Shown: in pieces, positions 8,991-54,959 of the stretch
How positions within the stretch are numbered: position 1 is the first letter of the stretch
Layout of the letters: every line of letters begins with the position of its first letter
Assembly (NCBI GenBank): GCA_949358305.1
Contig: OX442314.1
Coordinates: 28,768,001-28,832,000, forward strand
DNA length: 64,000 bases
Direction: 5' to 3'
Source: Strigamia acuminata
Taxonomy: Eukaryota
Position numbers and translations under genes: made by a program
The notes under the pieces: generated by a model
Seen by the model: the letters and a program-made list of their open reading frames with translations, nothing else
Database searches by the model: none
What the model was told of the DNA's origin: nothing

Positions 8991-8992
8991 CG

Positions 8993-19774: not shown

Positions 19775-19792
19775 TTCCACATCCGCTCGCGA
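19741..19792 (+). promoter_or_regulatory. -1 ribosomal frameshift signal (element A)
   Basis: A AAA AAC in the gag frame at 19741-19747, 6-nt spacer, stem TCGCGGGCGGA / TCCGCTCGCGA. pol is in the -1 frame. Confidence 0.8.
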
Positions 19793-23853: not shown

Positions 23854-24031
23854 AAACAACCACAGGGGGGACACCTGTTACGTCCCACAATGCGTCTTAA
23901 TTGGCCAAACCAATCAAAGATGACATGAGACTAATAGTTAACCTCTAACCCGACCCACACTTATCACTGTCATCTCCGACTAAGCAACGATCACCTCGAG
24001 ACAGCCGTGAAATCAAATTAGTTTCCGAAAA

Positions 24032-27000
24032 ATGAGAAATGATTGGAAGAAAGAAATTGAACGGGCCGTAAACAACGCTTCCGAGGATGACGATGAAGAT
24101 CAAGTGGATTTGTTACAAATCATTGTAAACAACGAAGAGGGAAATTGGGACGAACCCAATGAACCCGATGTCCAACCCGACGTAAGTAAAAAATAGAAAA
24201 AATTCAATTATCGATAATCAAAAATACGAAATAAGTTCGTGGACTGACCACAAACGAAGAAATAATTTAACTTTAAGTGACAAATTATCAAAATTAATCA
24301 AATACCGAAAGAAAAATTAACTTCAAGACACGTGGTCGAAAAGCACATGGCCGACCATGACGCCATCTTGTGTTAGACGAAAGAATCTCTACAAAAATAT
24401 GACAAATTAATCAACGATCCTAATATATTTATTAATATTCTAATATTTAGGACGGATATCGCACTACGTGGGGGCAAATCGACCCGAAAAGAGTTTCCGC
24501 AGGCAGCTTATGGCGCGAAGTAATCCCCATACTGTTCCGACAAGCGCTCGAAGAAGCGGTCGACTTTGAACCATGGAAAATTCGCCTTTTATTGTCCCGT
24601 GCGATCAGCCGCTACTGGTCCAGCCAGCAAACGTTGATCCACTACATGCCGCGCCAATATCAAGCAGCTTTACGGGCAGTTATCTCGAGAAATATGGACC
24701 CGCCAGCGCCAATCCCGAATCCACTAATCCGAGCCGCCTTTCCTGACGACCAGCGAGGATGGGACGTTTACGAACAATGGCGCGACGCCGAAACAGATGA
24801 AGAAAAACACCAGATTCATATGGCATATTACGAAGAAGTAAGGCGGACCGCACATGACGAGGTTTTCAATTATCTACAGCCGGACGGTTACTCGACCGAG
24901 GAAATCAGGTTTTGGCTCCTTCAGATCCGCGAAGACCGGCCCGACCGCCCAGATTGGAGACCGAGACACGGTTTCATCACCTCGCAACGAGCAATGCATC
25001 AATTGCATTTTTTGGGCTTCTTTGGTCGCAAACGCCAGAAGGCCGAGAAACGTCTCTCCAACGAGCACGACGAAGCAGGCTGCTCAGCGAAGAAACCATG
25101 CCTGGACAAGCCAAGCACTTCCAGCAGCGCGCAGAATAAGAAACCCGCGACAGAGAAACGCCTGGCCAAACCAAGCGCTCTCTCTCGCCTGGGAAAGACG
25201 GAGATCCCACAAACATCGCGATTTCAATCCAGGGATGCCCCGTCAACCAGCCGAAGAAGAGAAAATGTACGCGAACGCCCCGACCGCCGAGAAGATCAAC
25301 GCCGACGCGATAGGAACCAAGAAAATTGGGACGATTATCGTAGAAATTACTTCCGACGGCGGGAAGAAAACAAGGAATCCTGGAATAGACACCGAGAGGA
25401 GTTCCTGCGCGAACGTGATGAAAGAGCCCGACGTGAACGAGAGAACCTCCGTCTACAAGACGAACGAAGAAGGAGAGGATCGGAGAGTCGCGCACGTTCA
25501 TGGAAAGCGTATCGTGAAGAAGAAATTCGACAGCGAGATAGGAGGCGCTGCGAAGATACACGATCAATTCGGGACAGTCCCGAACCAATGAAGATCGACG
25601 ATGAGGTAATTATCGACGAGGTCCCCGAGCAAAAGAAGATGTATACTCAGGCGGACCTCCTCGCGGTAGTTATGCAATACCAACAAATGCAGCCGAAACC
25701 AGTCTACCGCCCGACTCCCTCGACCGCCTCGAGTCTAGAGACGGCGCCAAGTGCTTTCATCAAGCCGGAACTCTCGCAGACGAGAAGCGTAACATCCAGC
25801 GTCAGCCTCCCAAGCGCCTTTCGCAAGAAAGTGATAATCGGCGCACCGACACTGAGTTCTGAAGAACAACTCAGACATCGAGAAGCTCGCTTTGGACCGG
25901 CCAAAGTCGAACCTCTCCCAACTATCCCCGAAGCCTCAACTTCAACGAGAACTCCAATCGTTTGGGACAAGCCCGAACCGGAAAAATCAAGACGTCTGGT
26001 CAGATCTGTGCCTCAGCCAACGACATCCACGGGACCCAATCCGATGTTGCCAGCCCCAGCAGTCATCCAAGCCTCGACTCCAATCAACCCTTCGGAGGTA
26101 ACGTTGCAACAGTTTCTGGAGGTAACGACCGTGGAGCAAGCTAGAGCGCTTTTGTGCGAGATGGACTCCTACCAACAAAACGTGATCCAAAACGTCATCA
26201 CGAACCTTCAGCGGATCTCGATTGAATATACGCAGAACAAAAATCGGGATCATCCAAATTGGAATACGAGGATCGTGGTTGCCATTACCGACTTGATGTC
26301 GATTTTGCTGGCCGCCGCCACCTTCCGAAACGCACGTGTTGCTGTGGCAGCCTGGATCGTGGTGGCCCACGAGGGTTTCCAAGTCCCGCCGGCTCTCGTA
26401 GACAGCTGGACCCGCCTAGTGCCCTCTGCGGCAGTAATTCGAGCCCAAATGGTGGCCCAGGACCCGGATCCAGAGACCTCCTATCAGAACGTTCGAGCGA
26501 TCATCCAACACCCACGCCCGTCGTCTTCAGTGACCACACCCGTCGTGGAAACTCCGGCTCCCAGGGATCCGACGCCTCCTCCTCCGCCTCCGCCGAAGGA
26601 AAATAGACCTTCCGAACCACTGGCCGAACCAGTCTCGCTCAAAAAGAAGGAAACAAAAGGAAAATTGCTCCGCCCAAAATCGAGCATGAAAGCTTCAAAG
26701 ACGGCCGAACCTCAGATCGCCGCCAGACTCCGGATGTACTTCCCGGGGTTGTCCTTGACGAAGGATACTGAAACAAAATTACTCCAAACCCCAGACCGTG
26801 GCTATTCTCTTTATGTCTGGATGAAGAACGCTATCGAAGCTGGAGCCGGAGGCGATCGCTTCATCCAGCATCAACGACTACTCCGAGCCCATCGCGCGCC
26901 AACCAGCATTGCCGAGGCCCAAAGAATCCATCACACCAATCAGGGAATGTCGCCCTTTTTGCCGCCAATTTGGGCCCACGAACGAACGGGGAATCCGCTG

Positions 27001-27141
27001 GAAGCGCCAGGTCACTTACGTTTCTACTTGAACGAGAGCGAAGACCCCTCGGACTACTCTTCAAAATTGACCACATCTCCCAACCTGGACGAACCAAGTT
27101 CGGAAGATAAGCCAAGTTACGCCGATAACTTGAAGAAATAA
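24032..27141 (+). CDS. Spliced ORF3 of element A, unknown function (join 24032-24181, 24451-27141; ~946 aa)
   Basis: An ATG exon of exactly 50 codons ends at GAC|GTAAGT. Acceptor ttctaatatttag|GAC at 24450 opens the same frame as ORF 24592-27141 with no stop. Homologous blocks with B ORF3. Confidence 0.8.
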
Positions 27142-30449: not shown

Positions 30450-31514
30450 TGTGGTGACCTCAAATATTCCTATTTGAGTGCGCACCATATTTCCAAATTG
30501 TCTTATAAACATATTCAACAAGCTTATATGTTTTGTTTCAATGTAAATTGAAATAAAATATATATTAATCAAATATAAAACAAGACACAATATTACCCAA
30601 ATAATATTGTGTTTTGCAGCAAGTTTTGGCCCAGCAACAGCGTCAACCAATCGCGCTGCAGCGTGCATTGCTTTGATGATGCTGCTAGGCGTGTGCCTGG
30701 GCGGAGCATCCCTTCCCCTCGCGCGTGCCCGGCTCAATTGTTGCACACGACCCGAAGGCGGCCGTGTGTGATCTTTGTGCAACTCGTCATCTGCGCAGCT
30801 TTTCTGAGCAGATTCAGGAGTAAGCCAAACGGTTTTGGCCCACTCTTCCCGCATTCTTGATTCTGCTTCCAAACCATTCACATCTGTGTCAAACTTATGC
30901 CAACCATTGCTAAGTGTGATCTGTGATATCTGGAAGAGTTGAGATTCATTGCTGGTCCGTGCCAACTGTACGGAATAGCGCCCTTCTGCTTGAATTACTA
31001 CGCGTAATTTAAGCCATTTCTGTGTGGGAATTGACATTGAGCTTGCTCTGTCAATTTGAAGGCTTTGTGTCGAGTTTAACTCCACAAAGCAATTTGTGTA
31101 AAGACCGATTGTTACGTCGAGCTTGCTCCGTAATAATCGAATCGCTGTGTGCAAGACGTATTCTCGTGTCGAGCGTGCTCCACGAGGATTTTTAGTATAT
31201 TCAGCAACGTATTTTAGCGTCGAGTTTACTCCGCTAAAATCCCGCGCTCACACGACGCCGTCGACGCCATCTTGGAGCCAACGGTCAACTGTGAGTGTAT
31301 ATTTGAAGAAGAAGCCAGATCGACCCCAAACATTTTGAATAATACCTCCTTTGTATTTTGAACAATTAAAGCTATCTAATTTTTCCTTTACTCTGTGTAA
31401 AATCATTCCCCTAGACAAACATTTGGCCACAGAGTAGAAGTCCTGTACGGCATCTCTACGACGATTACTTGATAAGTCTCCTCGATTTATTAAGTAAAAA
31501 CCCGGATCGCCGCA
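30450..31514 (+). repeat. Element B 5' LTR
   Basis: Direct repeat of 42188-43252; TGTGGTGACC...GATCGCCGCA. Confidence 0.96.
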
Positions 31515-31516
31515 CT

Positions 31517-31534
31517 TGGGGGCCCAGCCGGGAT
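31517..31534 (+). promoter_or_regulatory. Primer-binding site, tRNA-Pro-like (element B)
   Basis: TGGGGGCCCAGCCGGGAT, 2 nt after the LTR; imperfect tRNA-Pro complement. Confidence 0.75.
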
Positions 31535-31606
31535 TGTTTTGATTGTTAAAATCCGATTTTTGCGAAAAGATCCTTTATTTCCATTGTTCTTTTTCAATTT
31601 GACAAA

Positions 31607-34504
31607 ATGGCGACGCCAATGCAAATTGTAAAACGACAGCGAGGTCGACCAAGCACTCAGAAACGAGCAGCGACGGTTTTGCCGGCTCTCGAGCCTGAAA
31701 TGCTTGTGGAGAAAATTATTTCCGAGGAAATAACACCAATTCCAGATCCGAAACAACTTAAGGATGCTGAAAATGAAGTTGCTCGAGCCCTGAGCGCATC
31801 GAGTGCGAGTTCTCACGAACAAGAACTCCCGCCACTTCCACTGGAGGAAGTGGAAAATACGTTACGTGAAATGGAAAGTGAATCGTCTCACGAATCACCT
31901 CCTCGCATGACCATGCTGGATGCTTTGAGAAATCAAGCACGCCAGGATGGCGCCCAAATAACGGACGACATGACGGTGGAAGAGATTCATCGCGCCATGA
32001 TACGACTTCACACTGACCGAGCCGTTTCAGATTTAAAATTTGAAGTGGAACGGAAAGAAGCAGAGCTTCAACAACAAAAAGCGGAGGTTGAGCTCCAACA
32101 CATGGAACTCAATCGACAAAATGAGGAATTTCTAGCCCAAAAAGCTAGAGAATACAGATTAAAAGGTGAAGTGGAAAATCTTTCTAAAATGAATGTTAGA
32201 AATGAACTTTCAATTCGCTCACACCAAGAGGCGCGAAAACAGCTCGAGCTTACCAAAAGTAAGCTGGAGCAGAAAAATAAAGAACTGATTGATTTGGCAG
32301 ACCACTACCAACGCAATCATAATCAACTAGTGAGATATGCTGCTGAATTAGACACACGTGCTAAAACACAGCGTACTCGCGAAAGTAATATAGCTAAGCG
32401 TGAAGACGAGATTTTCCACTCGCTGGATCAACCCAGTACGAGCGGACAAGTCAAGTCTAGCGGCCCTGCTAAGCGATCACAACCAGAAGAATCGCAAAAT
32501 CAAATAAATGAGAATGAAATTCTCCGAGCTGATTTGTTGCGCGCTCAAGAAGAGCTTGCAGAAATGAAAGATCGTTTGCAAGCAAGAAATTATACTGACC
32601 AATTGGTGCAACCAGAAATGGCTGCGCCAACTGTCCCTATTTTGACTCCCGAAACAATAACAATTTCTGTTGTTTCAGAGTTAAGTAGCCAATCTGGATT
32701 ATCAAGTGATGACGACCAACGTTCGCGTCGTCGCCATCGCTCAAAAAGAAAACGTCCTTCAGATTCTGAGGAACGGAGAGCTGATCGCAATCCGCTCCCT
32801 GGTAATCGAAACCCTATTTTTCACAATAGTGACCGACTGTTGGGAATGGTAGACGATCGAAACAGACGACATGAAACAGGTATTCACGTTGCCCGAACGA
32901 TACCACTGGCTCAGCAGCAAGATTCGTCGAAAAGAAGTCGACGAGACACCAATCCAGCACGCGAACCGCCGGACGGACATGAAAGCCCGCCAGGTGGGGG
33001 TCAGTATAGAAGAAATCCACCAGATGGAGGAAATCCAGATGGACACGGAGATGGACCACCTGGAGGTGGACGCCGACCGCCAGACGATGGTGACGGCGAC
33101 CCACCCGACCCACCTGAAACGCCACATTTCAACACGCCTTCAAATTCACAATCTGATTCAAGGTCGGATTCTGATGTGAATGCGCAACAAGAACGCGATA
33201 ATCGACATCGATCTCATCGACGTCGACATCGAGGCCACTCTTCTCGGCGTAATACTCATTATTACACTGCTGAGGAAATAGATCGATTATTAGCTGATCG
33301 TCGATCTTCTGATCGATCTGACGCTACTGCCGATAATGCTGACATTGCATTACGACAGAAAATTGCACAATACACTGCCAACAACTGGACTCACGATCTA
33401 GTTGATGAAAGAAATATCAGATGGGATCACATTAAACCCGCTTTATTCGATGGAGAATGGGAAGCTGGATCCACTCTTTTAGATGAAGTTTTACGAATTT
33501 CAAGGTTGAATGGCATTGCATGTCACACTGCTTTGAAAAGAGTAGTACCAAAAGCTCTTATAGACCGAGCTGAGAAATGGTTTTATTCTAAACAATTTCA
33601 AAATTGGAACCACTTTGTAGAAGAATTCATGACTGAGTATGGAGAGTCAAGTGAAGACTTACTACAAATGTGGGATAATCTTTCTCAAAATAAAGGCGAA
33701 AGTCTTCGCTCTTATTTAAGAAGGACTGAGGATTTATTGGTCACTCTCCCTTATACGATGGGAGACGCAGCCATTGATCGTCAATTCCGTCGTGGATTGA
33801 CAGATTATTCAAAAAATGTTCTGCTTTCAGTACGAGCACCTTATCCGGGTGGTTTCGCTGAATTAGCCAAATTTATGCGAGCTAACCAGATAAGAATTGA
33901 TGAGAATTATAAAGCTTATCTACCAGCTGATGAAAAAGTTGCGTACGCTAAGCGACAGCAACGGAGAAAGGAGTTGGCTAAAGACACCCGTTTTGCTAAC
34001 ACCCCTCTTTTGCAACCCCCAAAACGAGGAGATTTTTTGGCAGAGACTGCCAAGGAATCGAAAAAGGGATCGGATGGAAATAATCCTCATCCAACCCCTA
34101 AAGCTCACTTAGCTGAAGTGACAGAAATGGAAACTGCTTCTGAACCAGAGAAATCTGACTCGGAACCAGAAAGTGAGGCAGCAGCTGCATTATTAGCCCG
34201 TAATAACGCAGTAGCAAGAAAATTTGGACCAAAAATGGCACCTAAAAACGTTACTTTTGGTTCACCAAAGACAGACGCGCTCAGTAGATCGAAGTCGCCG
34301 ACCCCTAAAAAGGACGAAGCCAAACGTTCGAGTTCGCCTTCGCCAAAAGTCGCGAAATCGCCTGCTACTGACCCGTGTAATATTTGTAAAAAATTGGGAC
34401 ATTGGGCTAAAGAATGTCCTGACAGAAAATCGAGCAAAGACAAGATTATAGAAGAGTTCGAGAAATCGATGAAATCAATCGGCGAACTTCTAAAAAACTT
34501 GTAA
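31607..34504 (+). CDS. gag: Gag of element B
   Basis: 965 aa with a coiled coil, capsid-like LIDRAEKWF...WNHFVEEF...QNKGESLRSYLRR, and the CCHC knuckle CNICKKLGHWAKEC. Confidence 0.95.
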   Translation: MATPMQIVKRQRGRPSTQKRAATVLPALEPEMLVEKIISEEITPIPDPKQLKDAENEVARALSASSASSHEQELPPLPLEEVENTLREMESESSHESPPRMTMLDALRNQARQDGAQITDDMTVEEIHRAMIRLHTDRAVSDLKFEVERKEAELQQQKAEVELQHMELNRQNEEFLAQKAREYRLKGEVENLSKMNVRNELSIRSHQEARKQLELTKSKLEQKNKELIDLADHYQRNHNQLVRYAAELDTRAKTQRTRESNIAKREDEIFHSLDQPSTSGQVKSSGPAKRSQPEESQNQINENEILRADLLRAQEELAEMKDRLQARNYTDQLVQPEMAAPTVPILTPETITISVVSELSSQSGLSSDDDQRSRRRHRSKRKRPSDSEERRADRNPLPGNRNPIFHNSDRLLGMVDDRNRRHETGIHVARTIPLAQQQDSSKRSRRDTNPAREPPDGHESPPGGGQYRRNPPDGGNPDGHGDGPPGGGRRPPDDGDGDPPDPPETPHFNTPSNSQSDSRSDSDVNAQQERDNRHRSHRRRHRGHSSRRNTHYYTAEEIDRLLADRRSSDRSDATADNADIALRQKIAQYTANNWTHDLVDERNIRWDHIKPALFDGEWEAGSTLLDEVLRISRLNGIACHTALKRVVPKALIDRAEKWFYSKQFQNWNHFVEEFMTEYGESSEDLLQMWDNLSQNKGESLRSYLRRTEDLLVTLPYTMGDAAIDRQFRRGLTDYSKNVLLSVRAPYPGGFAELAKFMRANQIRIDENYKAYLPADEKVAYAKRQQRRKELAKDTRFANTPLLQPPKRGDFLAETAKESKKGSDGNNPHPTPKAHLAEVTEMETASEPEKSDSEPESEAAAALLARNNAVARKFGPKMAPKNVTFGSPKTDALSRSKSPTPKKDEAKRSSSPSPKVAKSPATDPCNICKKLGHWAKECPDRKSSKDKIIEEFEKSMKSIGELLKNL

Positions 34505-34537
34505 GCGCGCATCCAGACGGTCTAGTGGATGCGACGC
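34492..34537 (+). promoter_or_regulatory. -1 ribosomal frameshift signal (element B)
   Basis: A AAA AAC in the gag frame at 34492-34498, then stem CGCATCCA / TGGATGCG after a short spacer. pol is in the -1 frame. Confidence 0.8.
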
Positions 34538-37500
34538 CTACCGCCTCGGAAAATGAACTAACACCATCTCAAATTTTAGATGAATTTTTAAATACACAGA
34601 TTAAATTAGAATTAGAAAATAATTTAATATTTCCAAAAATTGATGTTTCCAGTTTAAGGCTCGTGCTGCAAAATGAAAACATCACTGAAGAATTTTTTAA
34701 AGAAAAAGTTCAACAAATAAAAGTTGATTGGGAATCTAAAATAAAAGATGCTGTTATTTTACTAGATGAAAAAGCTAGGCCAACACCTGAAATTACTGAT
34801 AGATCAGATAAAATTGATTTACCTGGTCTTGACGAATGCATTGAAAAATTAATGGCTACAACGCTAGTCACTAATGATTTATTGGACGAATTACCATTGG
34901 ATCCGCCGATAGAAATTAAGCCACCGCGACGTTTTAAATGCAAGTACGCGGACATACCAAACAGCAATGATTTGCCGACGATTCGATTGCAGACGGCAAA
35001 CGGTATGATAACAGGGATGTTAGACTCTGGAGCTAATCGAAGCTTCATGGCCTACTCCGTAGTAATTTCGCTGAAACTGGAAGATGAAATTCGACCAATT
35101 GGACCGGATGTGAGAGTTACGACTGCTTCAGAAGATGTAGTCCCTGAAGGAACTCTCCTACTTTCTTTTGCGTGGACACACGGGATGTTAAGTCATCCAT
35201 TCATAATTTTAAGAAATAAATATCCTATTATTTTATTAGGATGTGATTTCATGAATCGACTCAATATTCAATCGAATCCTAAGACCATGTCTTGGAATTT
35301 TGTCAAGTCTTTGAAAAAAGATTTACCTTTTGTTCCTCAAGCGATTCTTGATCGTTATCAAGAGTTCCTTGATCCACCCGAAGAAATCATGAAACGCGAC
35401 TTTATTAAAGCAAATCACATGAAAGCTGGTTCCGCCACTGCATGTCAAGCTAAAGTTGCCGATGAAGAAAATATAGTACAAAGACTTGTTAGCGACGCTA
35501 ATTTCTCAATGGAAAATAATTTAATGCTTGAAAAAGTATTAAAGAAACATGAAAAGATTTTATCACGCCGACCAGGTAGAACACACCTCGTTAGGCATGA
35601 AATTAAACTGGACACTAAAGTTCCAATTAGAGTTCCGTTTAAAAGCGTAAATCCACAGAAACGTGAAATTATCCGTCAAATCTGTCAAGATATGTTGGAT
35701 AATGGGTACGTCGAACAAGCCACTGGAGACTATGGAATGCGAATAGTTCTAGTGATGCGTCCGGATTGTGATCCGAGACTCTGCATTGATTTTAGACCAC
35801 TCAATGCACATACATTATACGACCCTCCTCAAATGCCCAGCATTGAGGAAATCTTGCGAGAACTCGGAAGATTTGAATGGGTCACAACGATAGATTTGTC
35901 AAAAGGCTATTGGCAAATAGAGGTTCATCCGAACGACCGTGCTAAAACTGCGTTTTGGAGTCCTTTGGGTCGACTACAGTTTCGAGTCATGCCCTTTGGC
36001 CTCATAAATGCGCCGTCAACTTTTCAAAAGTTGATAGAAAAAATTTTGGGGGATGCCTATCGAAAATTCGCATGGGCATACCTCGATGATATAATTATTA
36101 TATCAAAAAATTTTGAAGAACACATGAGTCATCTAGAAGAAATTCTGAGTAAACTTGAAAATGCAAATCTTCATGTTCATCCAGAAAAATCGAAATTTGG
36201 CAGAAAAGAATTAACTTTCCTTGGTTACAAGTTAAGTGTTCAAGGAGTTAGTGTCGACCCTAAAAAAGTCGCCGCCATTAAAGAAATGCCAGCTCCTTCA
36301 AATTTGAAAGAGTTGCAAAGATTTTTGGGAATGGTGAACTTTTTTCACCGATTACTCAAGAATCTGGCAGTCATGACAGAACCTCTACGTCCTTTACTCA
36401 AAAAGGATGTGGAATTTATTTGGTCAGAAATCCATCAAGAAGCTTTTGATCAAATAAAAGATGCTTTAACGAATGCAGAAACAATGGCCATGCCTGATTT
36501 GACAGAACCATTTATTGTGCATACCGACGCCAGCAGAAAAGGACTAGGCGCCGCGCTTATGCAAATGAGGGAAATTGATGATCAAAATATCGAAGTGCCT
36601 TGTGTTTATGCCAGCAGAAGTTTGCAACCTGCTGAGATAAATTACAGCGCCACAGAATTAGAATGCCTTGCGGTAATCTGGGCATTACGCAAATTCCGAC
36701 ATTACTTGGAATTTACAACATTCATAGTAAGGACTGACCATCAAGCATTAAAATGGTTGATGCAGTTAGACGAACCTGCCGGAAGGCTAGCGCGTTGGCA
36801 AATGGAGCTAATGCGCTACTCTTTCGAAATACAATATATTAAAGGTCCACTAAATGTTTTAGCGGATGCTTTATCCAGATCACCGATTGACAAACCGGAA
36901 AATCCTGAAGATGATGGAGATAATGATGAATTATTATCTTACTGTCCATCACCGCAACGAAATTGGAAAATGGGAAAATTTCATGAACTTCCTGTCTCCA
37001 CGCTGGAGGAAAAGGAAGATCACGAATTCGTCAACTACTGGACTAAAATTTATGACCCCTCTGAGGAATCAGATGACGTCATAAAAGCGCAAATTTCAAG
37101 GAAATTTCAAGTTCCTTCGTCAAATGTTTTAATAAAAGCATTTGTCGCCAAAATTGTAGAACGTCTTGATTGTGAACCTCCCACAAGGGAAGACATAATT
37201 AAGGCCCAAAAAGAAGATAAAGTTTGCCAATTAATGCGTAATTTTTTAAATTGTAATCAATTTCCGCCTGACGTCACAACGCGACTCCAGAGGAAACAAT
37301 ACAGAAAACACGCAACCACCTTCTTAATTGAAGATGACTTATTAATGCAATTTCATCCCACAATGTCTGATGAATTGGGGGAGGATGGGAGAGCACTCAA
37401 AGTTTTTGTACCTCAGTCATTGAAGTATAAAATTATTTGGCTAATGCATGGCCACCCACTTTCTGGCCACCCAGGAATTGCAAGGACTCTTTATCGAGCA

Positions 37501-38973
37501 CGCCGAATTTATACCTGGAAAGGCATGAAATCGGACATTACGAGATTCATTCGACATTGCGAGCGTTGTCAAGCTTGCAAACCTCGAACGAAAGGACAAA
37601 TTGAAGCAGCGCAAATGGGTCCTTACAGCCCATTTGACTGTCTAAGTGTTGATTTGACCGGCCCGAAACCTCGGACGCGCAAAAACAACACACATATTTT
37701 AGTCATACTTGACGTGGCAACTCATTGGCCAGAATTATATCCAATGTGTAACCCCACTGCTGGAAAAGTAGCAAATTGCATTTATCACCTTTCCATGAGC
37801 ATGGGATTCCCTCGTAAAATTATTTCTGACAACGGCCCGCAATTTCGTGCCCAAGTCTTTAAAAAATTTTGTGAAAAGTTCAAGATGGTTCCAACACCAA
37901 CTTCAACGTATCACCCACAAGCTAACCCGGTTGAAAGGGTTAACCGTGACATCAAATATTTGGTTGCAATTTATTCATCTGTTCATTCCAAATGGGACGA
38001 ATATTTGCGTGAATTTGCATTTAGTTTGAGAACTACGGTGACGAGAGGAAGAGACTTCTCTCCCGCATTTCTTAACTTTTTTCGCGAACTCAGAGTACCT
38101 TGGGATCCAAGAATACCTGAAGGAATTTTGGTCGTAGATCCAAAAAACCCACATTTATACGTGCAAAAATTAGAAGCCGTTATCGCCGAAACATATCAGC
38201 ACATGATGTCACACGTGTTAGATTTGCGTAGACGAGTTAATCTTAAAAAAGAAGGTGAGAAGTTCTCCAATTTTAAATTAAACGATTTAGTTTGGAGAGA
38301 TTCTCATGTTTTGTCGAGCGCTGCCCGCGGCATTGCAGCTGGCATCGCTGATAAAAGAACAGGACCTTATGTAATAACCAAAGTATTACAGGGAGGATCG
38401 GTGGAATTGAGAAAGCTGGTAAACAACGAAATATTTCCAGCTGTCCATTCGTCTGAATTAACTCCGTATTTCCCGAGTTTCGATCAGGAAGTATGGTTAG
38501 AAGGCGAGGAAGTCGGTCAAAAGACTGAAAATATAATTAACACGTTAGATGACGATGAATTAAAGAAAATACCTGTCGATAATTCATCCAAACCACAAAT
38601 GGAGTCAGACCTTGTGAATAACGACGTTGAACTTCGTGACAGTTTCAAAAAGCTTGAAATTGCTAAAAAATTAAATAAAAAGGTGTTTTTAGAAAAGAAA
38701 CAAAAAACATCTGAAATAAAAGACTCATCTGACTCAGTCTCCGATGACAATGAAGACGGCGATTTAAATACAATAAATCCCTCGCCGACAAAGAGATATA
38801 ATCTTTGGACTCGTAAACCGAGAGGAAAAAACAACATGTGTCTTCTCCCCTCGATAACCTCGAGATCCAGGGATCAGCCGTATGACGTAAGGAGCAATTC
38901 CCCAAGCCATACGCAAACCAATCAAACAATAAGATTGGATGACGTCACTAACCGCGACGTTACCCAAACGTAA
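34525..38973 (+). CDS. pol: Pol polyprotein of element B (protease, RT, RNase H, integrase)
   Basis: MLDSGA, LCIDFRPLN, YLDD, TDAS, HHCC, SDNGPQF, VERVNR, GPY; uninterrupted 1482 aa. Confidence 0.97.
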   Translation: MDATPTASENELTPSQILDEFLNTQIKLELENNLIFPKIDVSSLRLVLQNENITEEFFKEKVQQIKVDWESKIKDAVILLDEKARPTPEITDRSDKIDLPGLDECIEKLMATTLVTNDLLDELPLDPPIEIKPPRRFKCKYADIPNSNDLPTIRLQTANGMITGMLDSGANRSFMAYSVVISLKLEDEIRPIGPDVRVTTASEDVVPEGTLLLSFAWTHGMLSHPFIILRNKYPIILLGCDFMNRLNIQSNPKTMSWNFVKSLKKDLPFVPQAILDRYQEFLDPPEEIMKRDFIKANHMKAGSATACQAKVADEENIVQRLVSDANFSMENNLMLEKVLKKHEKILSRRPGRTHLVRHEIKLDTKVPIRVPFKSVNPQKREIIRQICQDMLDNGYVEQATGDYGMRIVLVMRPDCDPRLCIDFRPLNAHTLYDPPQMPSIEEILRELGRFEWVTTIDLSKGYWQIEVHPNDRAKTAFWSPLGRLQFRVMPFGLINAPSTFQKLIEKILGDAYRKFAWAYLDDIIIISKNFEEHMSHLEEILSKLENANLHVHPEKSKFGRKELTFLGYKLSVQGVSVDPKKVAAIKEMPAPSNLKELQRFLGMVNFFHRLLKNLAVMTEPLRPLLKKDVEFIWSEIHQEAFDQIKDALTNAETMAMPDLTEPFIVHTDASRKGLGAALMQMREIDDQNIEVPCVYASRSLQPAEINYSATELECLAVIWALRKFRHYLEFTTFIVRTDHQALKWLMQLDEPAGRLARWQMELMRYSFEIQYIKGPLNVLADALSRSPIDKPENPEDDGDNDELLSYCPSPQRNWKMGKFHELPVSTLEEKEDHEFVNYWTKIYDPSEESDDVIKAQISRKFQVPSSNVLIKAFVAKIVERLDCEPPTREDIIKAQKEDKVCQLMRNFLNCNQFPPDVTTRLQRKQYRKHATTFLIEDDLLMQFHPTMSDELGEDGRALKVFVPQSLKYKIIWLMHGHPLSGHPGIARTLYRARRIYTWKGMKSDITRFIRHCERCQACKPRTKGQIEAAQMGPYSPFDCLSVDLTGPKPRTRKNNTHILVILDVATHWPELYPMCNPTAGKVANCIYHLSMSMGFPRKIISDNGPQFRAQVFKKFCEKFKMVPTPTSTYHPQANPVERVNRDIKYLVAIYSSVHSKWDEYLREFAFSLRTTVTRGRDFSPAFLNFFRELRVPWDPRIPEGILVVDPKNPHLYVQKLEAVIAETYQHMMSHVLDLRRRVNLKKEGEKFSNFKLNDLVWRDSHVLSSAARGIAAGIADKRTGPYVITKVLQGGSVELRKLVNNEIFPAVHSSELTPYFPSFDQEVWLEGEEVGQKTENIINTLDDDELKKIPVDNSSKPQMESDLVNNDVELRDSFKKLEIAKKLNKKVFLEKKQKTSEIKDSSDSVSDDNEDGDLNTINPSPTKRYNLWTRKPRGKNNMCLLPSITSRSRDQPYDVRSNSPSHTQTNQTIRLDDVTNRDVTQT

Positions 38974-39183
38974 CTTCCGGTATTTGAACTGATCACTTCG
39001 CGTCTGAGTTCACTTCGATCTCACACGTGTGCTAAGTGCTCATCCCCAAAAAACCAAAAGCGAAACAACTGGATTATTTCAACGGGATTCTTCAATTGTA
39101 AGTAGTTTTTTCTTTGGAATTTTCCAAGGAAAAACTAATAAATTAATTTTCGTTTTTCTTTTCCATTTGGATTAGTCGTTCAA

Positions 39184-42015
39184 ATGGAAGGAGAGGAACC
39201 GAAAGAAGGAAGCGAAGCCGGCGCCAACAGCCTCGAATTAGAAACAAATTCGACGCTGCTTGGTTCCGCAAATACTTCGACATCCGTGGATGTCACCGAA
39301 GAGTCCGCCGAAGCGTCCGCTGAAGCTCAAGCCGCTCTGGCCGACGCTGCTGCCCGTTTGCCAGTCACGCCGCCCCAGCCCCGACTACGAGGAGGCCTAT
39401 TCGCCGATCCAAACGGCGAAACTCGTGCACAGAGACACGACCGGGTAAATAATTTAAAATAAAATTACCTTTCAGTCATGAAAAGTAATTAAAAGTGCAT
39501 TTTCACTCAGAAAAAGCAAAAAGTTCGTTGGTAACGCCTTCGCAAGAAGGCGCCGCCATTATTATCATCAGATGGCGCTGTGTCTCGTTTTTGAGGCGTT
39601 GCTACGGTAACGCTCCAACATTGAAACATGGCCGTCGGAAACAACGTTTTTCACGATTTTTCAAATATTTTGAAAAATTTAACGAATCTAAACCGTCGAA
39701 TGAAATCTCACCCGTGATTTTATTCACTGAAAATTCGGAAATAATTATTTTACACGAAAAAATGGATTTTAATTATTTCTTTGAATATTTTACAGATCAT
39801 CCAGCTTCGGGAGACGCATCTCGAACTGCACCCCGATGTTCCGACAGCTCCTGGTGTCTGGCGACACGCTTTGCCACCGGAGATCATAAAGTCTAAAGGA
39901 CGATTGACGTTTTGGGCGGCCCGCCACAAATTCTCCAAAGCCTTAAACAAGCGATGGGGAACGAAGTTTTGGATCGCCTATTTAATCGATGGATTTGGTC
40001 ATCGCGACGCCCTCGAATGGGCAATAAAGCGCGACACCTTCGGACCACTACGAAACGTGTTGCTCGACTTCGCCTTCGTAGTGATCGCTCAAGAAACGCG
40101 AGACCATCGCCGTTACTTCAACGCTCCTGCGTGGGAGCGTCGACAGATTCTAGAGGACATTTTCCAACGCTTGGACCAAACCAAAGCCGAGGTTGTGCGC
40201 CTCTACCACGAATCTTTCCGTGTAACCACAGACGGAAAGAAACGTTGGGTGCCGACATGCCAGTCGGAAATGCATCAACTAGCCATGGGCGGATGTTTCC
40301 ATGCTGATTTCGTGCCAAACCCGTATCCAGAGCCTGAGCCCCGGGTACAGGTCGCTTCCACCATCCACGTGGTGCCACCGCGCTCCACGTCGAGGTCACG
40401 ATCATCGAGGTCGCCCTACAGTGGCCGTCGCTCCTCCCCAACACAGTCGTCGGGGGAAGGCGCCATTGGAGGGTTACCTCCACTCCAGAAGGCTCGTCAT
40501 CGCTCACATCACCGACGCGAGTCGACGCCGCCAAAAAGACATTCAAAGTCCGTTTCGAGACACTCGTCCCGAAGCCGACCTCGAGTGCAATCGCGCCAAT
40601 CTTCCACGAGGAGTTCACTCTCGTCGCGTGAAGAACGATCCAACGCTTCACAGCTTAACGCTTCCTCCTCCGGTCGGATTGACTGGTCGGACGAGATAGC
40701 GAAAGAAGATCAACGCATCGCCGCATTGCAAGCCGGTCAAGGAGACGTCAACACCTCTTTGCCGTTCGCTTGCCGTCCAGTCACCAGCGACATGCGACCA
40801 GACCTATCAGTGCCCGTGCCACAAGTGACATCGGTCATCCGTTTTGAGGGATACGTCTCTCAAGAACCATTTCCCGCACAGGAGTGCGCTGATCTCTGGA
40901 GGCGATTCTCATCGTTTCCCCAGACAGCCCAAGCAATGTACCTCGCACATCTGGACGAATACCAACTCGCTCAGATCCGCGAAGGTGAGAAGGAGTGGCA
41001 ATGGCTTGCGCGACAGCTTGCGTCGTGCAAGTTTGACAAGCAACTGCAACGGACGCTGCAGAAGATGAACAGGAAGTTGTCGGAGGGACTTCTTCGAATC
41101 CTGTTCCAAGGAGTCTTTCCCGACCCACAGATTGCTCTGGTGGCCGCCACTCGATTGTGGACCGTGCCGTTAGGGCTTCCACGAGCCTTGCTGGACGATT
41201 GGGAGTCAGTTCGCCCCGATCCTCCAACGATGCTCGCCGAATTGACGCAACAAGCCGAGGCGACTGGCGAAACTCCGGCTGGATCCGCCATTCGACTACG
41301 GCAGGAATGGGCTACACTGAAGCAGCAGCGCGCAACGGAACGAGCCACCGCCCGTCCCGCTGGCGCACCACCGTCATCCGCAGCTCCACTCCACGCTGCC
41401 ATCACGGCAACGTCGAGTGTTTCCTGTGCAACCGAGGCACCGAGTTGCAACATCTCGTCTCCGATGGAGTGGCTCGACAGCGACGATCGCGAGTTCGTCG
41501 TGCCTGTGGCCAGCGGTGCCAGACCAAAGACGCGCACCCCGGCTTCGCGCAGATCCAGATCCCTCTCGATCTGCAAAAAGTCGCCGCCACCACCGCCACC
41601 GCCAAAGGATTCGCCACCGAGAGATAGGGGATCAAAGATGGCCACCTACCTCACCGCCTATCAACGTTTGCGCTCATTATACGCCTTTTGCTACATAACG
41701 AGCGCGACGAAAACGATTCTCCAGAACAGCGAGGATTTATGCAACCGAGTCCTCGCGTGGCTGGAAAACCACATCAAGGAACAACAGCCGTGGATCCTAC
41801 ATCAACGCCTGGTGTTCGCCCGAATTACGCCTCAAGACCTGCAGGAGTATTTCGAGATGGGTTTTGGACGAAGGGATGGTGTGGACCGCATAAAGCAAGT
41901 GTGGCTCCACATCAACCCTGGTTTCCGGTCAGGACCAAACGCCGGCCGATCTTTGTGCACCGTCACAGAGCACAAAGATCCAAACGATCATTCAACGGAC
42001 ATGTTGCCTAAATAA
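39184..42015 (+). CDS. Spliced ORF3 of element B, unknown function (join 39184-39444, 39796-42015; ~826 aa)
   Basis: An ATG exon of 87 codons ends at CGG|GTAAAT. Acceptor atattttacag|ATC at 39795 is in frame with ORF 39781-42015. A further 5'UTR intron candidate lies at 39098-39175 (GTAAGT...pyrimidine tract...TTAG). Confidence 0.8.
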
Positions 42016-42187
42016 TTAGGGAACATGCCCATTCATTGAAAATAATTCCTTTTTTATTTTTTTTTACTGTAATAAAAAAGAATAAATATCCTGTTCCATT
42101 TCTACTTTGAAACCTTGTGTATTTATTCCTATACTTACCTGTCTCTTTTTGGAAAAGAATAAGATTCTTTCTTAAAAGGGGGGGAAG

Positions 42188-43252
42188 TGTGGTGACCTCA
42201 AATATTCCTATTTGAGTGCGCACCATATTTCCAAATTGTCTTATAAACATATTCAACAAGCTTATATGTTTTGTTTCAATGTAAATTGAAATAAAATATA
42301 TATTAATCAAATATAAAACAAGACACAATATTACCCAAATAATATTGTGTTTTGCAGCAAGTTTTGGCCCAGCAACAGCGTCAACCAATCGCGCTGCAGC
42401 GTGCATTGCTTTGATGATGCTGCTAGGCGTGTGCCTGGGCGGAGCATCCCTTCCCCTCGCGCGTGCCCGGCTCAATTGTTGCACACGACCCGAAGGCGGC
42501 CGTGTGTGATCTTTGTGCAACTCGTCATCTGCGCAGCTTTTCTGAGCAGATTCAGGAGTGAGCCAAACGGTTTTGGCCCACTCTTCCCGCATTCTTGATT
42601 CTGCTTCCAAACCATTCACATCTGTGTCAAACTTATGCCAACCATTGCTAAGTGTGATCTGTGATATCTGGAAGAGTTGAGATTCATTGCTGGTCCGTGC
42701 CAACTGTACGGAATAGCGCCCTTCTGCTTGAATTACTACGCGTAATTTAAGCCATTTCTGTGTGGGAATTGACATTGAGCTTGCTCTGTCAATTTGAAGG
42801 CTTTGTGTCGAGTTTAACTCCACAAAGCAATTTGTGTAAAGACCGATTGTTACGTCGAGCTTGCTCCGTAATAATCGAATCGCTGTGTGCAAGACGTATT
42901 CTCGTGTCGAGCGTGCTCCACGAGGATTTTTAGTATATTCAGCAACGTATTTTAGCGTCGAGTTTACTCCGCTAAAATCCCGCGCTCACACGACGCCGTC
43001 GACGCCATCTTGGAGCCAACGGTCAACTGTGAGTGTATATTTGAAGAAGAAGCCAGATCGACCCCAAACATTTTGAATAATACCTCCTTTGTATTTTGAA
43101 CAATTAAAGCTATCTAATTTTTCCTTTACTCTGTGTAAAATCATTCCCCTAGACAAACATTTGGCCACAGAGTAGAAGTCCTGTACGGCATCTCTACGAC
43201 GATTACTTGATAAGTCTCCTCGATTTATTAAGTAAAAACCCGGATCGCCGCA
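42188..43252 (+). repeat. Element B 3' LTR
   Basis: Direct repeat of 30450-31514, followed by TSD AGTA. Confidence 0.96.
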
Positions 43253-43256
43253 AGTA

Positions 43257-43565
43257 GCAATCGAAATGTTCGAAAATGTTAAACCTTGCCACTGTAAACG
43301 TAAATGTAACGAGATCAAATACACATTGAATAAGGAAACGGAAGCAAAAAATTATAACCTAAACAAAACGGGGTTGAATTTCCTTTTTGCAGCTAAAACA
43401 CACGAAACGATTATAGAGCGACAAATGTTCTCGCTTTCAGCTTTGTTCAGTGAAATTGGTGGAACCCTCGGTCTATACCTTGGCATCAGCATTTTCACAA
43501 TTGTTGATCTCATTAGCTTTCTCGTCCGACTTTCATTTTCCAAGTTTAAAGACTTTATAAAATAA
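43257..43565 (+). CDS. DEG/ENaC disrupted copy, distal part of last exon (Cys-rich region end, TM2)
   Basis: PCHCKRKCNEIKY...LFSEIGGTLGLYLGIS. Rejoins 30368-30449 in frame (GWQVAIEMFE) when B and one TSD copy are removed. Confidence 0.88.
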   Translation, partial: AIEMFENVKPCHCKRKCNEIKYTLNKETEAKNYNLNKTGLNFLFAAKTHETIIERQMFSLSALFSEIGGTLGLYLGISIFTIVDLISFLVRLSFSKFKDFIK

Positions 43566-45760: not shown

Positions 45761-48253
45761 TGTGACGGTTATAAAACCGTATTTTCCCAGATTTAACACC
45801 AGATGGCGCTATTTTGACTAAAAGCGCGCATTTTCGAATGAATTGCGAGAATTATAATTAATTGTTGGAATGACGTGAATAAATATAAATTATTTATTAA
45901 ACATGATAAAAGTATTATTTACTTGAATATTGATTCTACCGAATCAATATTATATTTTATATTTACGTGTTGAAGAGAACCAATCGGACTCTTTCGGACC
46001 CAGTCTATATTAGGTCCAGACAAGTGACCCACGAATCCGCGGATTCTGACGTCTGATTGGCTAACGCTAATCCTTCTGTTCTAAAGAACTATATAAGCTC
46101 TGGTTTTCCACCAGACCTTCGGCTTGTTTTCTGTATGTTTGTATGTATTGTTGGTTATCGTTTGATTTCTCTCTTTCTTATCGACACATCAGGCCCCCTC
46201 GTTGTCTCAGTCAATATGTATTCATTACTATTGTGCTATTCTTCGTTGTAGCGTCATTTCGGGAAGACTAACTCCGGTAACCAAATAGTCCCGTAGCGCT
46301 AGCCAGCTGTTCTAAGGAGCAGTAGGATTTCGTACGATGGCTTACCCAGGTAAAAAAAATCTGCAGAATTCTGCAGAAAGTTTGCCAGCAGAAAAAATTC
46401 TGCAGAAAATCAATTCCAACAGAGGTAAAAAAAAAAGTAAAAGATTTAAAAGTAAAAGATTCTGCAGAATTCTGCAGAAAAAATGACATCCGAAAAAATT
46501 TGCCAGAAAATCTTTTTTCTCTGCAGAATTGTGCAGAATAATTGTACGCCAAACGAAAGGGTAGCCAATGCTGGAAATCTCGTACGGGCAAAGATTTTGG
46601 ATTTCAAAATCCTTGAAATCTCATGAAATCTTGGAAATCCTGGAAATCTTTAAAATTTCATGAAATCCTGGAAATCTTAGAAATCCTGAAAATCCTGGAA
46701 ATTCTGGAAATCTTATAAATTGTCTTGCTATTTGGTGTAAATTAAACTTTATTTATTTAAACTTTTTATTTAAATCTGAGACTATTTGAAAATTTAAAAA
46801 CATTTCGGAAAAAGTAACTATATAAGAGAAGTTATGCATTCAAATAGTATAAGCTATACAAGCCTAGTGGATAGAGCACTGGTCTTTAGAACAATGGATC
46901 CCGGGTTCAATTCCAACAGAGGTAAAAAAAAAGTAAAAGATTTAAATAAAGATAAATAAAAATGTCAATAAAACATGCAATTTGTGTTAATAACAATGAA
47001 AACTAATTGTTGAATATGGGTTGTAAAAGAAACTAAATGGCTGTATATGGTAAAAAAAAAATTTGAGTTAGTGTAAAACATTTACAATGTATTACAAGTA
47101 TGTAAATCTGTTTTTTTTTTCTGCAGAATTCTGCAGAATTTGATACTTTTTTCTGCAGAAAATGCTTTCTGCAGAAAATATTCTGCAGAAAAGGTTAACA
47201 TTTTTCTGAAGAATTCTGCAGAATTTGGTAAGTTTTTCTGAAGAAAATTTTTCTGCACAACATGCAGAATTCTGCAGAACCTTTTTCTCCTGGGTAGTAT
47301 ATCGCTCATGCACGGGATTGATTAACACCGTTAAACAAATATCAAATTATATGATCGGTGATAGTCGCATCTATCTGCGCGATTCTCCGATCATAGGTCA
47401 GATGCTCTGCCAGAGCACATATACGGGAAGTCAAACCCGTCAAACAAATGCGGGCAAACCGTTTTCCCAGGGTTCCGATGCAGTGCATTGGCCCTTCCGT
47501 TAAGTAGGCAAGACTTGCCTGAGGTCGGTAAAAGCCTTATTCACAGGCGACGCACCGGGTTGGTGGCCCGTGAGCAATTGCATTCATACCTTGCGCTAAA
47601 CAAACACTCGGGTATTGGTAATGCCGATCTGGTAGTCCCCCAGGAACTGTTTACCCAGTGGTTGGTACCACTGAAAGTGACTCGTCGCAGAAAACAAATA
47701 CCCGGCGCCTGATCACGAGATCTTGTCGTCGTAAGGCATGCTGGCGGATGGAGTCTCAACAACTCCCGCGATGGTCCCCTCGACTGTCGTGACTGTCCCC
47801 GCCCATAGAATAACAATATAACAATTCATTTGTTATATTACACTAATATTGTTTATTGATTTGAATACGGAATATTCTAATGAATATTCCCGACTAAATA
47901 CGAAGGACTCTTCGTATTAATAGATATCCGAGCTGCGGGACCGAATACGTCTCCGTAGCGCTAATTGTGACGATGCCGCAAAGTCAGCCGCACCACTCGA
48001 ACAGCATCGCCCGGATCCTCAACCAGTGTAGCCGCCGTTACACTTATCCAGAACCCCAACCCAGTTGTAATGTTAATAAACATGTAATTATATCGCGCAA
48101 AACCGTAAGTTGTATTATTTCGTTGTATTTCCATTTGACACATGAATTCGTAGCTTATCTCGGTTAGGTTGTTACTAGGTGTAGTGACGTCTTGTTTAAA
48201 CCGATTTATCTCTTATAATGGCTAATTATTCAGCCAAAAGTAGAATCGTCACA
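45761..48253 (+). repeat. Element D 5' LTR (MITE-interrupted)
   Basis: 2493 bp = 1541 + 950 insertion + 2-bp TSD. Confidence 0.93.
46345..47294. mobile_element. Non-autonomous DNA transposon (CCCAG termini, TA TSD; CMC/EnSpm-like) in the D 5' LTR
   Basis: CCCAGG...CCTGGG with duplicated TA; the empty site is visible in the 3' LTR. Many palindromic TTCTGCAGAA subterminal repeats and a GAAATCCTG-type tandem array. Confidence 0.88.
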
Positions 48254-48255
48254 AG

Positions 48256-48273
48256 TGGAGGTTCTACCGAGAT
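48256..48273 (+). promoter_or_regulatory. Primer-binding site, tRNA-Gln (element D)
   Basis: TGGAGGTTCTACCGAGAT, 2 nt after the LTR. Confidence 0.85.
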
Positions 48274-51200: not shown

Positions 51201-51399
51201 CACAATACTGAAATCTGACGAGATTAAGGTTCCACGAAAATGGTGAAATCCATCAATCACAAACGAGATTAAAATTTCGTAAGACTAACGTTTGAAGTTT
51301 GGCCAATCAGAGAGGTTTACCGAAGTATATCTACTTCAATTTGAACCAGTGTAACCATTGCTTCGTTTGCAACCCCCCCTGAACGCTTGTGACTTCTTC

Positions 51400-54131: not shown

Positions 54132-54959
54132 ATCCGGGGGATAAAAGATTATCCCTCCAAAGTCAAAAGATTTTTAAATAAATCTCGATCACCGGAACTT
54201 TAAATAAAGTTTCGGTTAATAAGAGTTGAATTTATTCAATAGAATAAGAGGTTTTTAATAAAAACTTGTGTGGTATTTGGATAAATATCTTAGCGGTGTA
54301 GTGATTAATAAATCACACCACCGGGGGATAGAATTCTAGAATTCTGGAAAGCATGATAAAATAAAAGAAGTTTTATTTCGGAACAAATATATTTTATGCT
54401 CGTAGAATAAATTGGTATTGTTTTCTAGAAGAAAATAAATTACCAGTTAGGTTACTTGTCTACGAATAAATATTTGTAGTAATTAGACAATAGTCTAGTT
54501 ACTTGTGTTAAAAAGGTCCCCAGTTAGAATGAAATTCAAGTCGCGGTCGAGGCTTGGGATATTAAGCAGCGAGAGAATTATGTTTTGATTTTTATTAAAG
54601 TCAAAATTCGTATGAGCTGTTACAGATCTTAGAGTAAATATATTTATATTTGAATTAGATCGGTAGAGTAAGATTTCAATTGAAATCGAGCGGTTGACGA
54701 ACATGAATGACATGATCCGAAGGTTCCATTCTGTTGCTTAGCCACCAGGAGAAGTGTCGTACAGGAAAACCAATTAGTCAATTGTGTTATGAGTTTCTGA
54801 AAGAAATTGGTGTGATTAATTTTGAATAAAATTAATAGAGCACGTATTGGATTAAAATAATTCAATAAAAATCTGGGTGAACATCTTAAGTTTAAGAAGT
54901 AACTCTTGTCGATGACAAATATAGAGTTAGTAAGCTCTTATGTTTGTCACCGGGGGATA

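What the first reader, a model, noticed from the sequence alone, without database searches (positions are those of the whole stretch)
39098..42015. Element B ORF3 has two introns and a matching phase-0 acidic leader exon
Seen: a 5'UTR intron at 39098-39175 (GTAAGT, pyrimidine tract, TTAG), ATG at 39184, an 87-codon acidic/Ala-rich exon, an intron at 39445-39795 (GTAAAT...TTTTACAG), then 739 codons including a long Arg/Ser-rich region (SRSRSSRSPYSGRRSS...). The long ORF has no early ATG of its own, so splicing explains how it is initiated. B has intact gag/pol and near-identical LTRs, so the introns survived a recent reverse transcription. Inference: RS-like (B) and RE-like (A) tracts at the same position suggest a nuclear RNA-processing factor, conceptually like Rev/Rex.
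Basis: partly seen in the sequence, partly recalled or inferred. Interest (0 to 1): 0.82.

Follow-up and report, generated by a model that had tools for sequence, protein, structure and literature searches.

The report
Retrotransposon extra gene keeps old intron
A young LTR retrotransposon carries a third gene of no known family, split by a likely intron at the same place as in a distant sister element, and the gene likely encodes a nuclear helper for the element's own RNA, though that role is untested.

Summary
The anatomy is as described. Element B (30450-43252) is a young Ty3/gypsy element (LTRs 1064/1065 identical). After pol lie ATG 39184, an 87-codon exon, a 351-nt GT-AG gap and a 739-codon exon whose first Met is residue 159.

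Intron 2 (39445-39795) is very likely real:
- A's and B's ORF3 are homologous from residue 4-5 after the acceptor (z 9.4), and A has the same phase-0 intron.
- One contig in a public run skips exactly these 351 nt.
- A third relative (P0150) has Met, leader and the same domain in one ORF.

Intron 1 rests on motifs only, and A lacks it. No RNA data were available.

A shared CCAAT 13-mer upstream and AATAAA before the polypurine tract suggest ORF3 is a self-contained transcription unit.

The SR-factor/Rev reading is weak. The tract is Arg/Ser-rich in B, Arg/Glu-rich in A and Lys-rich in P0150, so only basic charge is shared; there is no Pfam or fold match. Keeping introns through reverse transcription is normal for retroelements that make spliced mRNAs.

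Verdict: a new variant of a known kind, with a new accessory-protein family; a CERV/Rev-like role is about 30% likely.

The parts
30450..31514 (+). 5' LTR of element B (TG...CA), preceded by target-site duplication AGTA
   Evidence: 1064 of 1065 nt identical to the 3' LTR
31517..31534 (+). primer-binding site (resembles a tRNA-Pro PBS; assignment recalled, not tested)
31607..34504 (+). gag (Retrotrans_gag, CCHC knuckle)
34423..38973 (+). pol in the -1 frame relative to gag (RT, RNase H, integrase last)
38914..38981 (+). candidate internal promoter: CCAAT box inside a 13-mer shared with element A, inverted CCAAT, CRE-type palindrome, ETS-type motif (motif names recalled); overlaps the last codons of the pol frame
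   Evidence: inferred, no start site mapped
39098..39175 (+). predicted 5'UTR intron 1 (78 nt); its acceptor could also serve a long splice from the LTR
   Evidence: motifs only
39184..39444 (+). ORF3 leader exon, 87 codons, acidic and Ala-rich
   Evidence: the two indel rows shown in it are 3-nt
39445..39795 (+). intron 2, 351 nt, phase 0
   Evidence: exact skip in one contig of run X1; same place in element A
39796..42015 (+). ORF3 main exon, 739 codons: N domain (about residues 5-170), basic Arg/Ser linker (about 195-285), middle domain (about 360-495), poly-Pro, C domain (about 620-736)
42071..42086 (+). two AATAAA signals upstream of the polypurine tract; candidate ORF3-specific poly(A) signal
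   Evidence: inferred
42174..42187 (+). polypurine tract
42188..43252 (+). 3' LTR of element B, followed by AGTA
23906..23928 (+). element A: same CCAAT 13-mer plus a CRE-like motif upstream of its ORF3
24032..24181 (+). element A ORF3 leader exon, 50 codons, 17 D/E
24182..24450 (+). element A intron, 269 nt, GTAAGT...TTAG, phase 0; only GTRAGT in A's interior
24451..27141 (+). element A ORF3 main exon, 896 codons, homologous to B's

Best explanation
ORF3 is an old accessory gene of this small Ty3/gypsy lineage, split by a likely spliceosomal intron, likely transcribed from its own internal promoter, and it likely encodes a soluble basic nuclear protein that would help the element put out full-length, unspliced RNA, as CERV does for Cer1. 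Steps: (1) a short mRNA starts near the end of pol, loses intron 2 (and probably intron 1) and joins the acidic leader to the 739-codon exon; it may end at AATAAA before the polypurine tract, so it lacks the primer site and the R repeat and is not itself copied (intron: strongly supported; promoter and poly(A): inferred). (2) The LTR-driven genomic RNA crosses the same strong splice sites but is mostly packaged unspliced, so most DNA copies keep the intron and a small leak gives intron-less DNA (supported by one contig). (3) The ORF3 protein, three helical domains joined by a basic low-complexity linker, would bind the element's RNA or chromatin and favour the unspliced form (inferred by analogy only). 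My odds: intron 2 real 0.9; intron 1 real 0.65; internal promoter 0.6; role in RNA export or splicing control 0.3.
For: A and B ORF3 are homologous: N domain z 9.4, C domain z 12.3 (0 of 2000 shuffles each), middle z 3.3 (21 of 2000); three mismatched-domain controls z 0.3, -0.9, -1.3. Homology starts at residue 5 (B) and 4 (A) after the acceptor, far before the first Met (159 and 66), so that part is translated. A and B are about 0.96 changes per site apart in RT-RNase H and form a clade at support 100 among 122 rows, so the intron position is old. One X1 contig skips 351 nt with GT..AG ends exactly at intron 2, depth 506 against 19,600-67,800 summed depth at intron positions. P0150 has Met20, a 47-residue leader and the same N domain in one ORF (N domain z 7.9 to B, 16.2 to A). 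Of 12 indel rows shown (of 19), the two in coding sequence are 3-nt and the other ten lie in UTRs or introns. A 13-mer with a CCAAT box is shared upstream of both ORF3s (1 of 300 shuffles as long), and A's LTR carries the same motif types as B's internal region (sequence printed). No hydrophobic stretch in B (max 19-residue Kyte-Doolittle 1.2). Precedents: CERV (PMC10309623), internal promoter of Tor env (PMC4402516), foamy virus internal promoter with spliced bet (PMC3798896).
Against: No RNA evidence for any junction, start or end. The skipping contig is single, has 28 letters on its short side, is marked 'between: not known', was laid at 80% likeness, was not listed for X2 or X3, and X1's kind is not on record. 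The linker is not a conserved RS domain (RS/SR dipeptides 17 in B, 7-10 in A, 1 in P0150). B has no match to my simple NLS or leucine-rich NES patterns, though A and P0150 have both. No shared cis-element was found in the two introns (11 shared 8-mers against 7.2 in shuffles, 53 of 300 as many); B's intron folds well (z -5.2) but all of B does, on both strands (mean z -2.45 sense, -2.07 antisense), and A's intron does not (z -1.4). The promoter 13-mer was found by eye first and one of four region pairs tested; its parts are common (CCAATCA 18 times in the window). P0150's DNA context is unknown, so it is not shown to lie in an LTR element, and B-P0150 middle-domain similarity is not significant pairwise (z 0.8). 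An intron-less relative suggests the intron is dispensable.
Confidence: 0.35

Rival explanations
1. Same gene structure, but the protein counters host silencing or another host defence (piRNA, chromatin), in the way foamy virus Bet counters APOBEC3; the introns are kept because they help the short mRNA be expressed.
For: Fast divergence of ORF3 (about 25% identity A-B) against pol (56%); no relatives outside three sequences; spliced accessory genes from an internal promoter include a defence antagonist in foamy viruses (PMC3185757 passages).
Against: No likeness to any known suppressor; nothing tested it directly.
Confidence: 0.22
2. The protein is a Tas-like transactivator: made early from the internal promoter, it switches on the LTR promoter.
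For: Acidic leader plus basic region; candidate internal promoter with the same motif types as A's LTR; foamy virus layout (PMC3798896 passages, PMC13220597 abstract).
Against: No DNA-binding family or fold found; no long sequence shared between B's LTR and its internal region (none in the self-comparison, which listed only matches of 60 nt or more).
Confidence: 0.15
3. ORF3 is expressed like env of errantiviruses, by a long splice from a donor in or near the 5' LTR to the acceptor at 39175, with intron 2 as a second splice; the 39098 donor and the promoter-like motifs are incidental. This rival concerns expression only and is compatible with any function.
For: A GTGAGT donor lies in the LTR at 31291; this is the usual route for third ORFs (PMC12992720 and PMC5408684 passages); A has TTAG ten bases before its ATG.
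Against: A's LTR has no GTRAGT and the sequence before its TTAG is not pyrimidine-rich; the CCAAT 13-mer is shared by A and B; the only GTRAGT in B's interior sits 78 nt before the acceptor.
Confidence: 0.35
4. The protein acts later in the cycle (particle assembly, nuclear entry, integration targeting or cell-to-cell passage) or is an envelope substitute.
For: It sits in the env position; a basic disordered linker can bind nucleic acid or chromatin.
Against: No transmembrane-like stretch in B (max 1.2; A reaches 1.8 inside the middle domain); the leader is acidic, unlike a signal peptide; no env family match.
Confidence: 0.15
5. The introns are chance motifs or decayed spacer DNA and ORF3 starts at an internal Met or a non-AUG codon.
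For: No RNA evidence; the single skipping contig is short on one side.
Against: Conserved protein begins 150 residues before the first Met; same phase-0 intron in A; exact GT-AG skip; contiguous leader in P0150.
Confidence: 0.05

Closest known systems
Cer1 CERV (C. elegans Ty3/gypsy element; PMC10309623, abstract and two sections read)
   Same: LTR retrotransposon with a large (517 aa) non-env protein from a spliced mRNA, three predicted domains joined by linkers, no homology outside its lineage; genomic RNA keeps working splice sites.
   Different: cerv exons overlap gag and share its start; here ORF3 lies after pol with its own ATG and a dedicated non-coding intron. No Cys-rich loop is conserved (no invariant Cys among the three proteins). 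Export function is shown for CERV and untested here; sequence homology to CERV was not tested directly.
Foamy virus internal promoter with tas/bet (PMC3798896, PMC3185757 passages; PMC13220597 abstract)
   Same: 3' accessory gene(s) from an internal promoter, with an intron inside the accessory coding region.
   Different: Retroviridae with env; two products by alternative splicing. Here a Ty3/gypsy element without env, unspliced leader frame stops at once, promoter only predicted. That foamy viruses also make intron-less DNA genomes is recalled, and one search did not retrieve it.
Tor3b/4b elements of Oikopleura (PMC4402516 passages)
   Same: LTR element whose third gene is transcribed from a promoter in or just after pol.
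   Different: That gene is a transmembrane env and its mRNA is unspliced; ORF3 here is soluble-looking and split by an intron.
Errantivirus env (ZAM, gypsy, Idefix; PMC12992720 passages)
   Same: Third ORF after pol whose main exon needs an upstream exon for its start codon.
   Different: The env intron is the gag-pol region itself; Env-F has signal peptide, furin site and transmembrane helix, none apparent here.
Bdelloid LTR elements with captured ORF3s (PMC5408684 passages)
   Same: Non-env additional ORF in the env position.
   Different: Those ORFs include recognisable enzymes (DEDDy exonuclease, GDSL esterase); the word 'intron' does not occur in that paper's main text.

Membership tests
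Ty3/gypsy LTR retrotransposon (Metaviridae) | LTRs with TG...CA, target duplication, PBS, PPT | tested here: met
Ty3/gypsy LTR retrotransposon (Metaviridae) | gag, then RT, RNase H, integrase last | tested here: met
Named Ty3/gypsy clade (Osvaldo, Mag, Gmr1, Cer1 ...) | RT phylogeny with named references | tested here: inconclusive
   A and B form their own long-stemmed clade; the 120 database rows are almost all unnamed and no reference clades were in the tree; integrase-last order differs from the Gmr1 order (recalled)
Errantivirus-type env | transmembrane helix and N-terminal signal peptide | tested here: not met
   max 19-residue hydropathy 1.2 in B's main exon; leader exon acidic; no env Pfam match. 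Simple hydropathy scan only
SR / SR-like splicing factors | RRM or other RNA-binding domain | tested here: not met
   no Pfam family at E 0.01 or, for the N domain, at E 1
SR / SR-like splicing factors | RS-dipeptide domain conserved in relatives | tested here: not met
   17 in B, 7-10 in A, 1 in P0150
Rev/Rex/CERV-type export factor | made from a spliced mRNA of the element | tested here: inconclusive
   strong indirect support; no RNA run available
Rev/Rex/CERV-type export factor | basic RNA-binding/NLS region plus leucine-rich NES | tested here: inconclusive
   basic linker in all three proteins; pattern matches for NLS and NES in A and P0150, none in B; patterns are loose
Rev/Rex/CERV-type export factor | structured response element in the retained intron | tested here: inconclusive
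   B intron folds but no more than other parts of B, and A's does not; no Rfam match near a gathering score
Rev/Rex/CERV-type export factor | required for cytoplasmic unspliced RNA | not testable with these tools
   needs knock-down and fractionation
Internal-promoter accessory gene (foamy IP, Tor Penv) | capped 5' end downstream of the LTR | not testable with these tools
   only motif evidence

The most novel reading that the evidence does not exclude
This lineage carries a complete cellular-style gene inside an LTR retrotransposon, with its own promoter, 5'UTR intron, coding intron and poly(A) signal, held across about one substitution per site of RT divergence, and its product, a new protein family, is a Rev/CERV-like switch that lets the genomic RNA pass strong splice and poly(A) sites unprocessed: an independent origin of complex-retrovirus regulation in a Ty3/gypsy element.
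Probability: 0.2. Interest if true: 0.8.

Novelty: new variant of a known kind. Interest (0 to 1): 0.55.

Why it matters
How LTR retrotransposons get unspliced RNA out of the nucleus is known for few elements (CERV is one). Here the intron codes for nothing else and an intron-less relative exists, yet the intron persists in two diverged families and, by rough contig depth, in nearly all copies. That makes the pair a natural test of what keeps an intron in an RNA that must be reverse-transcribed. ORF3 also defines a small protein family with three conserved domains and no match in the libraries searched. If the function is ordinary, the finding is still a clean case of an intron-split accessory gene in an animal Ty3/gypsy element.

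Tried and rejected
No RNA holder listed for 38900-42180; this says nothing on expression. No genome is held for the window, so no direct copy census. Element A's junction and any long splice from B's LTR were not examined in read data.

Homology searches with no hit: B ORF3; 0 of 7994 candidates; A+B alignment; 0 of 7993; Atlas; solved structures, best E 0.15; metagenomes, 0 of 60 stretches; viral contigs, 0 of 63 and 0 of 36; 77 loci with related pol, no ORF3 match; best E 0.6. Plain BLASTP of A against B missed the homology (E 0.06); it showed only domain by domain, with domain limits chosen by eye.

Structure: both AlphaFold2 models are low-confidence (pLDDT 39 and 41); fold searches gave nothing usable (best Z 4.7).

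An RRE-like conserved element in intron 2 was considered and not supported. A second GT..AG joint (39007-39314, one X2 contig) has no splice-site context and was set aside as a diverged copy. Of the 25 displayed variant sites in the main exon (40 of 204 sites were displayed), 12 are synonymous and 13 not: too selected a sample to measure constraint. The Gag comparison line was read in the wrong frame and is not used. Earlier-findings look-ups returned nothing.

Literature: searches; (gypsy + internal promoter + downstream of pol + intron) found 0 papers and one search found 1 on Dictyostelium, not read. The library lacks most subscription journals and Repbase-type reports, so absence from print is not established. 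No supplements were read.

Full report
OBSERVATION. Every coordinate in the finding checks. Element B runs from 30450 to 43252. Its LTRs differ at 1 of 1065 nt, with TG...CA ends, a 4-bp target duplication, a primer site and a polypurine tract. Gag and pol are open and carry Retrotrans_gag, CCHC, RT, RNase H and integrase domains in Ty3/gypsy order. After pol come a 78-nt GT-AG segment (39098-39175), ATG 39184, an 87-codon exon, a 351-nt GT-AG segment (39445-39795) and 739 codons whose first Met is residue 159. Unspliced, the leader frame stops five codons past the donor. GTRAGT occurs once in the interior of B, at 39098. With a crude score written after seeing the sites, the acceptors rank 1 and 2 of 631 AGs and the donors are in the top 4 of 436 GTs.

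INTRON 2 IS VERY LIKELY REAL. First, element A (6777-27967, interrupted by element C) has ATG 24032, a 50-codon acidic exon, a 269-nt phase-0 intron and an 896-codon exon. BLASTP missed the link (E 0.06), but domain by domain the two main exons are homologous: N domain z 9.4, C domain z 12.3, middle z 3.3, mismatched controls z 0.3 or lower. Homology begins at residue 5 of B and 4 of A after the acceptor, long before the first Met in either. A and B pol are 56% identical and about 0.96 changes per site apart in RT-RNase H, forming their own clade. Second, among 15 joints shown (of 24) when contigs of four public runs were laid on 38300-42400, one contig of run X1 skips exactly 351 nt with GT..AG ends at intron 2. 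Its depth is 506 against 19,600-67,800 summed at intron positions. X1's kind is not on record; I read it as DNA because introns are covered like exons, 12 contigs give different flanks before the LTR, and diverged contigs have even depths that scale between runs (about 230-300 in X1, 120 in X2). If so, a small share of DNA lacks the intron, which is what reverse transcription of a spliced RNA gives. The caveats are real: one contig, 28 letters on the short side, 'between: not known', not listed in X2 or X3, and depth is no copy number. Third, an HMM of A+B found 1 relative among 1.84 billion representatives, P0150 (E 9e-5). It has Met20, a 47-residue leader and then the same N domain in one ORF, and a middle domain like A's (z 9.1; B pairwise z 0.8). 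Fourth, of 12 indel rows shown (of 19), the two in coding sequence are 3-nt and the rest lie in UTRs or introns.

INTRON 1 IS LESS SURE. It has strong motifs and low GC, and one diverged X2 contig keeps the 12 letters leading into its donor while differing just upstream (loose ends). It is not among the joints shown, removes no upstream ATG, and A has no equivalent. Its acceptor could instead receive a long splice from the LTR donor at 31291.

A LIKELY SELF-CONTAINED UNIT. A 13-mer holding a CCAAT box lies upstream of both ORF3s (38914, 23906); its 12-nt core occurs nowhere else in the window and 1 of 300 shuffles gave a match as long. In B it is followed by an inverted CCAAT, a CRE-type palindrome and an ETS-type motif, the motif types also seen in A's LTR (names recalled). 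Both elements have AATAAA between the ORF3 stop and the polypurine tract (B 42071 and 42081, A 27251), though the 3'UTRs are not alike beyond chance. I put an internal promoter at 0.6. The 13-mer was first seen by eye and no start site is mapped.

WHAT THE PROTEIN DOES. It has three conserved, predicted-helical blocks joined by low-complexity linkers (models low-confidence), no Pfam family, no usable fold match and no transmembrane-like stretch in B, so it is not an env. I looked for an RRE-like element in intron 2: B's intron folds (z -5.2), but so does all of B on both strands, A's intron does not, and the two introns share no sequence beyond chance. I still take control of the element's own unspliced RNA as the single likeliest role (0.3), because the genomic RNA must cross strong splice sites and a possible early poly(A) signal, and because CERV shows that a Ty3/gypsy element can solve this with a large orphan protein from a spliced mRNA (PMC10309623, abstract and sections 9 and 15). 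Anti-silencing (0.22), transactivation (0.15) and late-cycle roles (0.15) are close rivals that nothing here excludes.

COMPARISON. Keeping introns through reverse transcription is the rule for retroelements with spliced mRNAs (PMC10309623 abstract; PMC12992720 passages). What differs here is a dedicated non-coding intron inside the third gene, conserved between diverged families, probably under a separate promoter. Tor elements have an internal promoter but an unspliced env (PMC4402516 passages); foamy viruses have an internal promoter with spliced bet but are retroviruses (PMC3798896 and PMC3185757 passages, PMC13220597 abstract); bdelloid elements have captured ORF3s (PMC5408684 passages); PMC13524379 (passages) gave nothing closer. 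Searches found no report of this combination, within a library that lacks most subscription journals. The element is a Ty3/gypsy member; no named clade could be assigned.

VERDICT. Observation confirmed and strengthened; functional inference open. New variant of a known kind, interest 0.55. If ORF3 proves to be a Rev/CERV-like switch in a full cellular-style gene (probability 0.2), interest 0.8.

Noticed in passing
window 30342-30449 and 43253-43400: Element B sits in sense orientation inside a coding exon of a DEG/ENaC-type channel gene copy; the uninterrupted paralogous exon at 60199-60633 matches Pfam ASC. Further ASC exons lie at 5457-5984 and 58608-59120.
   Followed up: partly
window 7079-16505: Element C: 1913-bp LTRs, 100% identical, inserted into A's 5' LTR; AT-rich 5.6-kb interior with no gag or pol ORF, a duplicated primer-site region (8986-9053, 9221-9288) and one 473-codon ORF (12576-13997) with no Pfam match and no likeness to ORF3. 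Likely non-autonomous.
   Followed up: partly
window 45761-56500: Element D: about 1.5-kb LTRs, the 5' one interrupted by about 950 bp; interior has a weak gag-like ORF (52299-54131) and no pol ORF.
   Followed up: no
window 30450-43252: Element B folds better than dinucleotide shuffles along its whole length and on both strands (mean z -2.45 over 149 sense windows, -2.07 over 50 antisense), unlike A (-0.87) and host DNA (-0.3 to -1.0); D's interior is similar (-1.96). Unexplained.
   Followed up: partly
window 31291-31415 (and 43029 in the 3' LTR): A GTGAGT donor and a downstream pyrimidine-rich AG inside B's LTR could define a further short intron; the 10-mer around that AG is shared with A's LTR, but not beyond chance (24 of 60 shuffles).
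   Followed up: no
window 6777-27967: Element A has identical 632-bp LTRs once C is removed; its gag (16927-19374) and pol (19666-23853) ORFs are separated by stops, with a gag-like piece at about 19457-19621.
   Followed up: no
   Followed up: no
window 1266-2044: A reversed integrase fragment 81% like A's lies next to a relic 71% like C's LTR.
   Followed up: no
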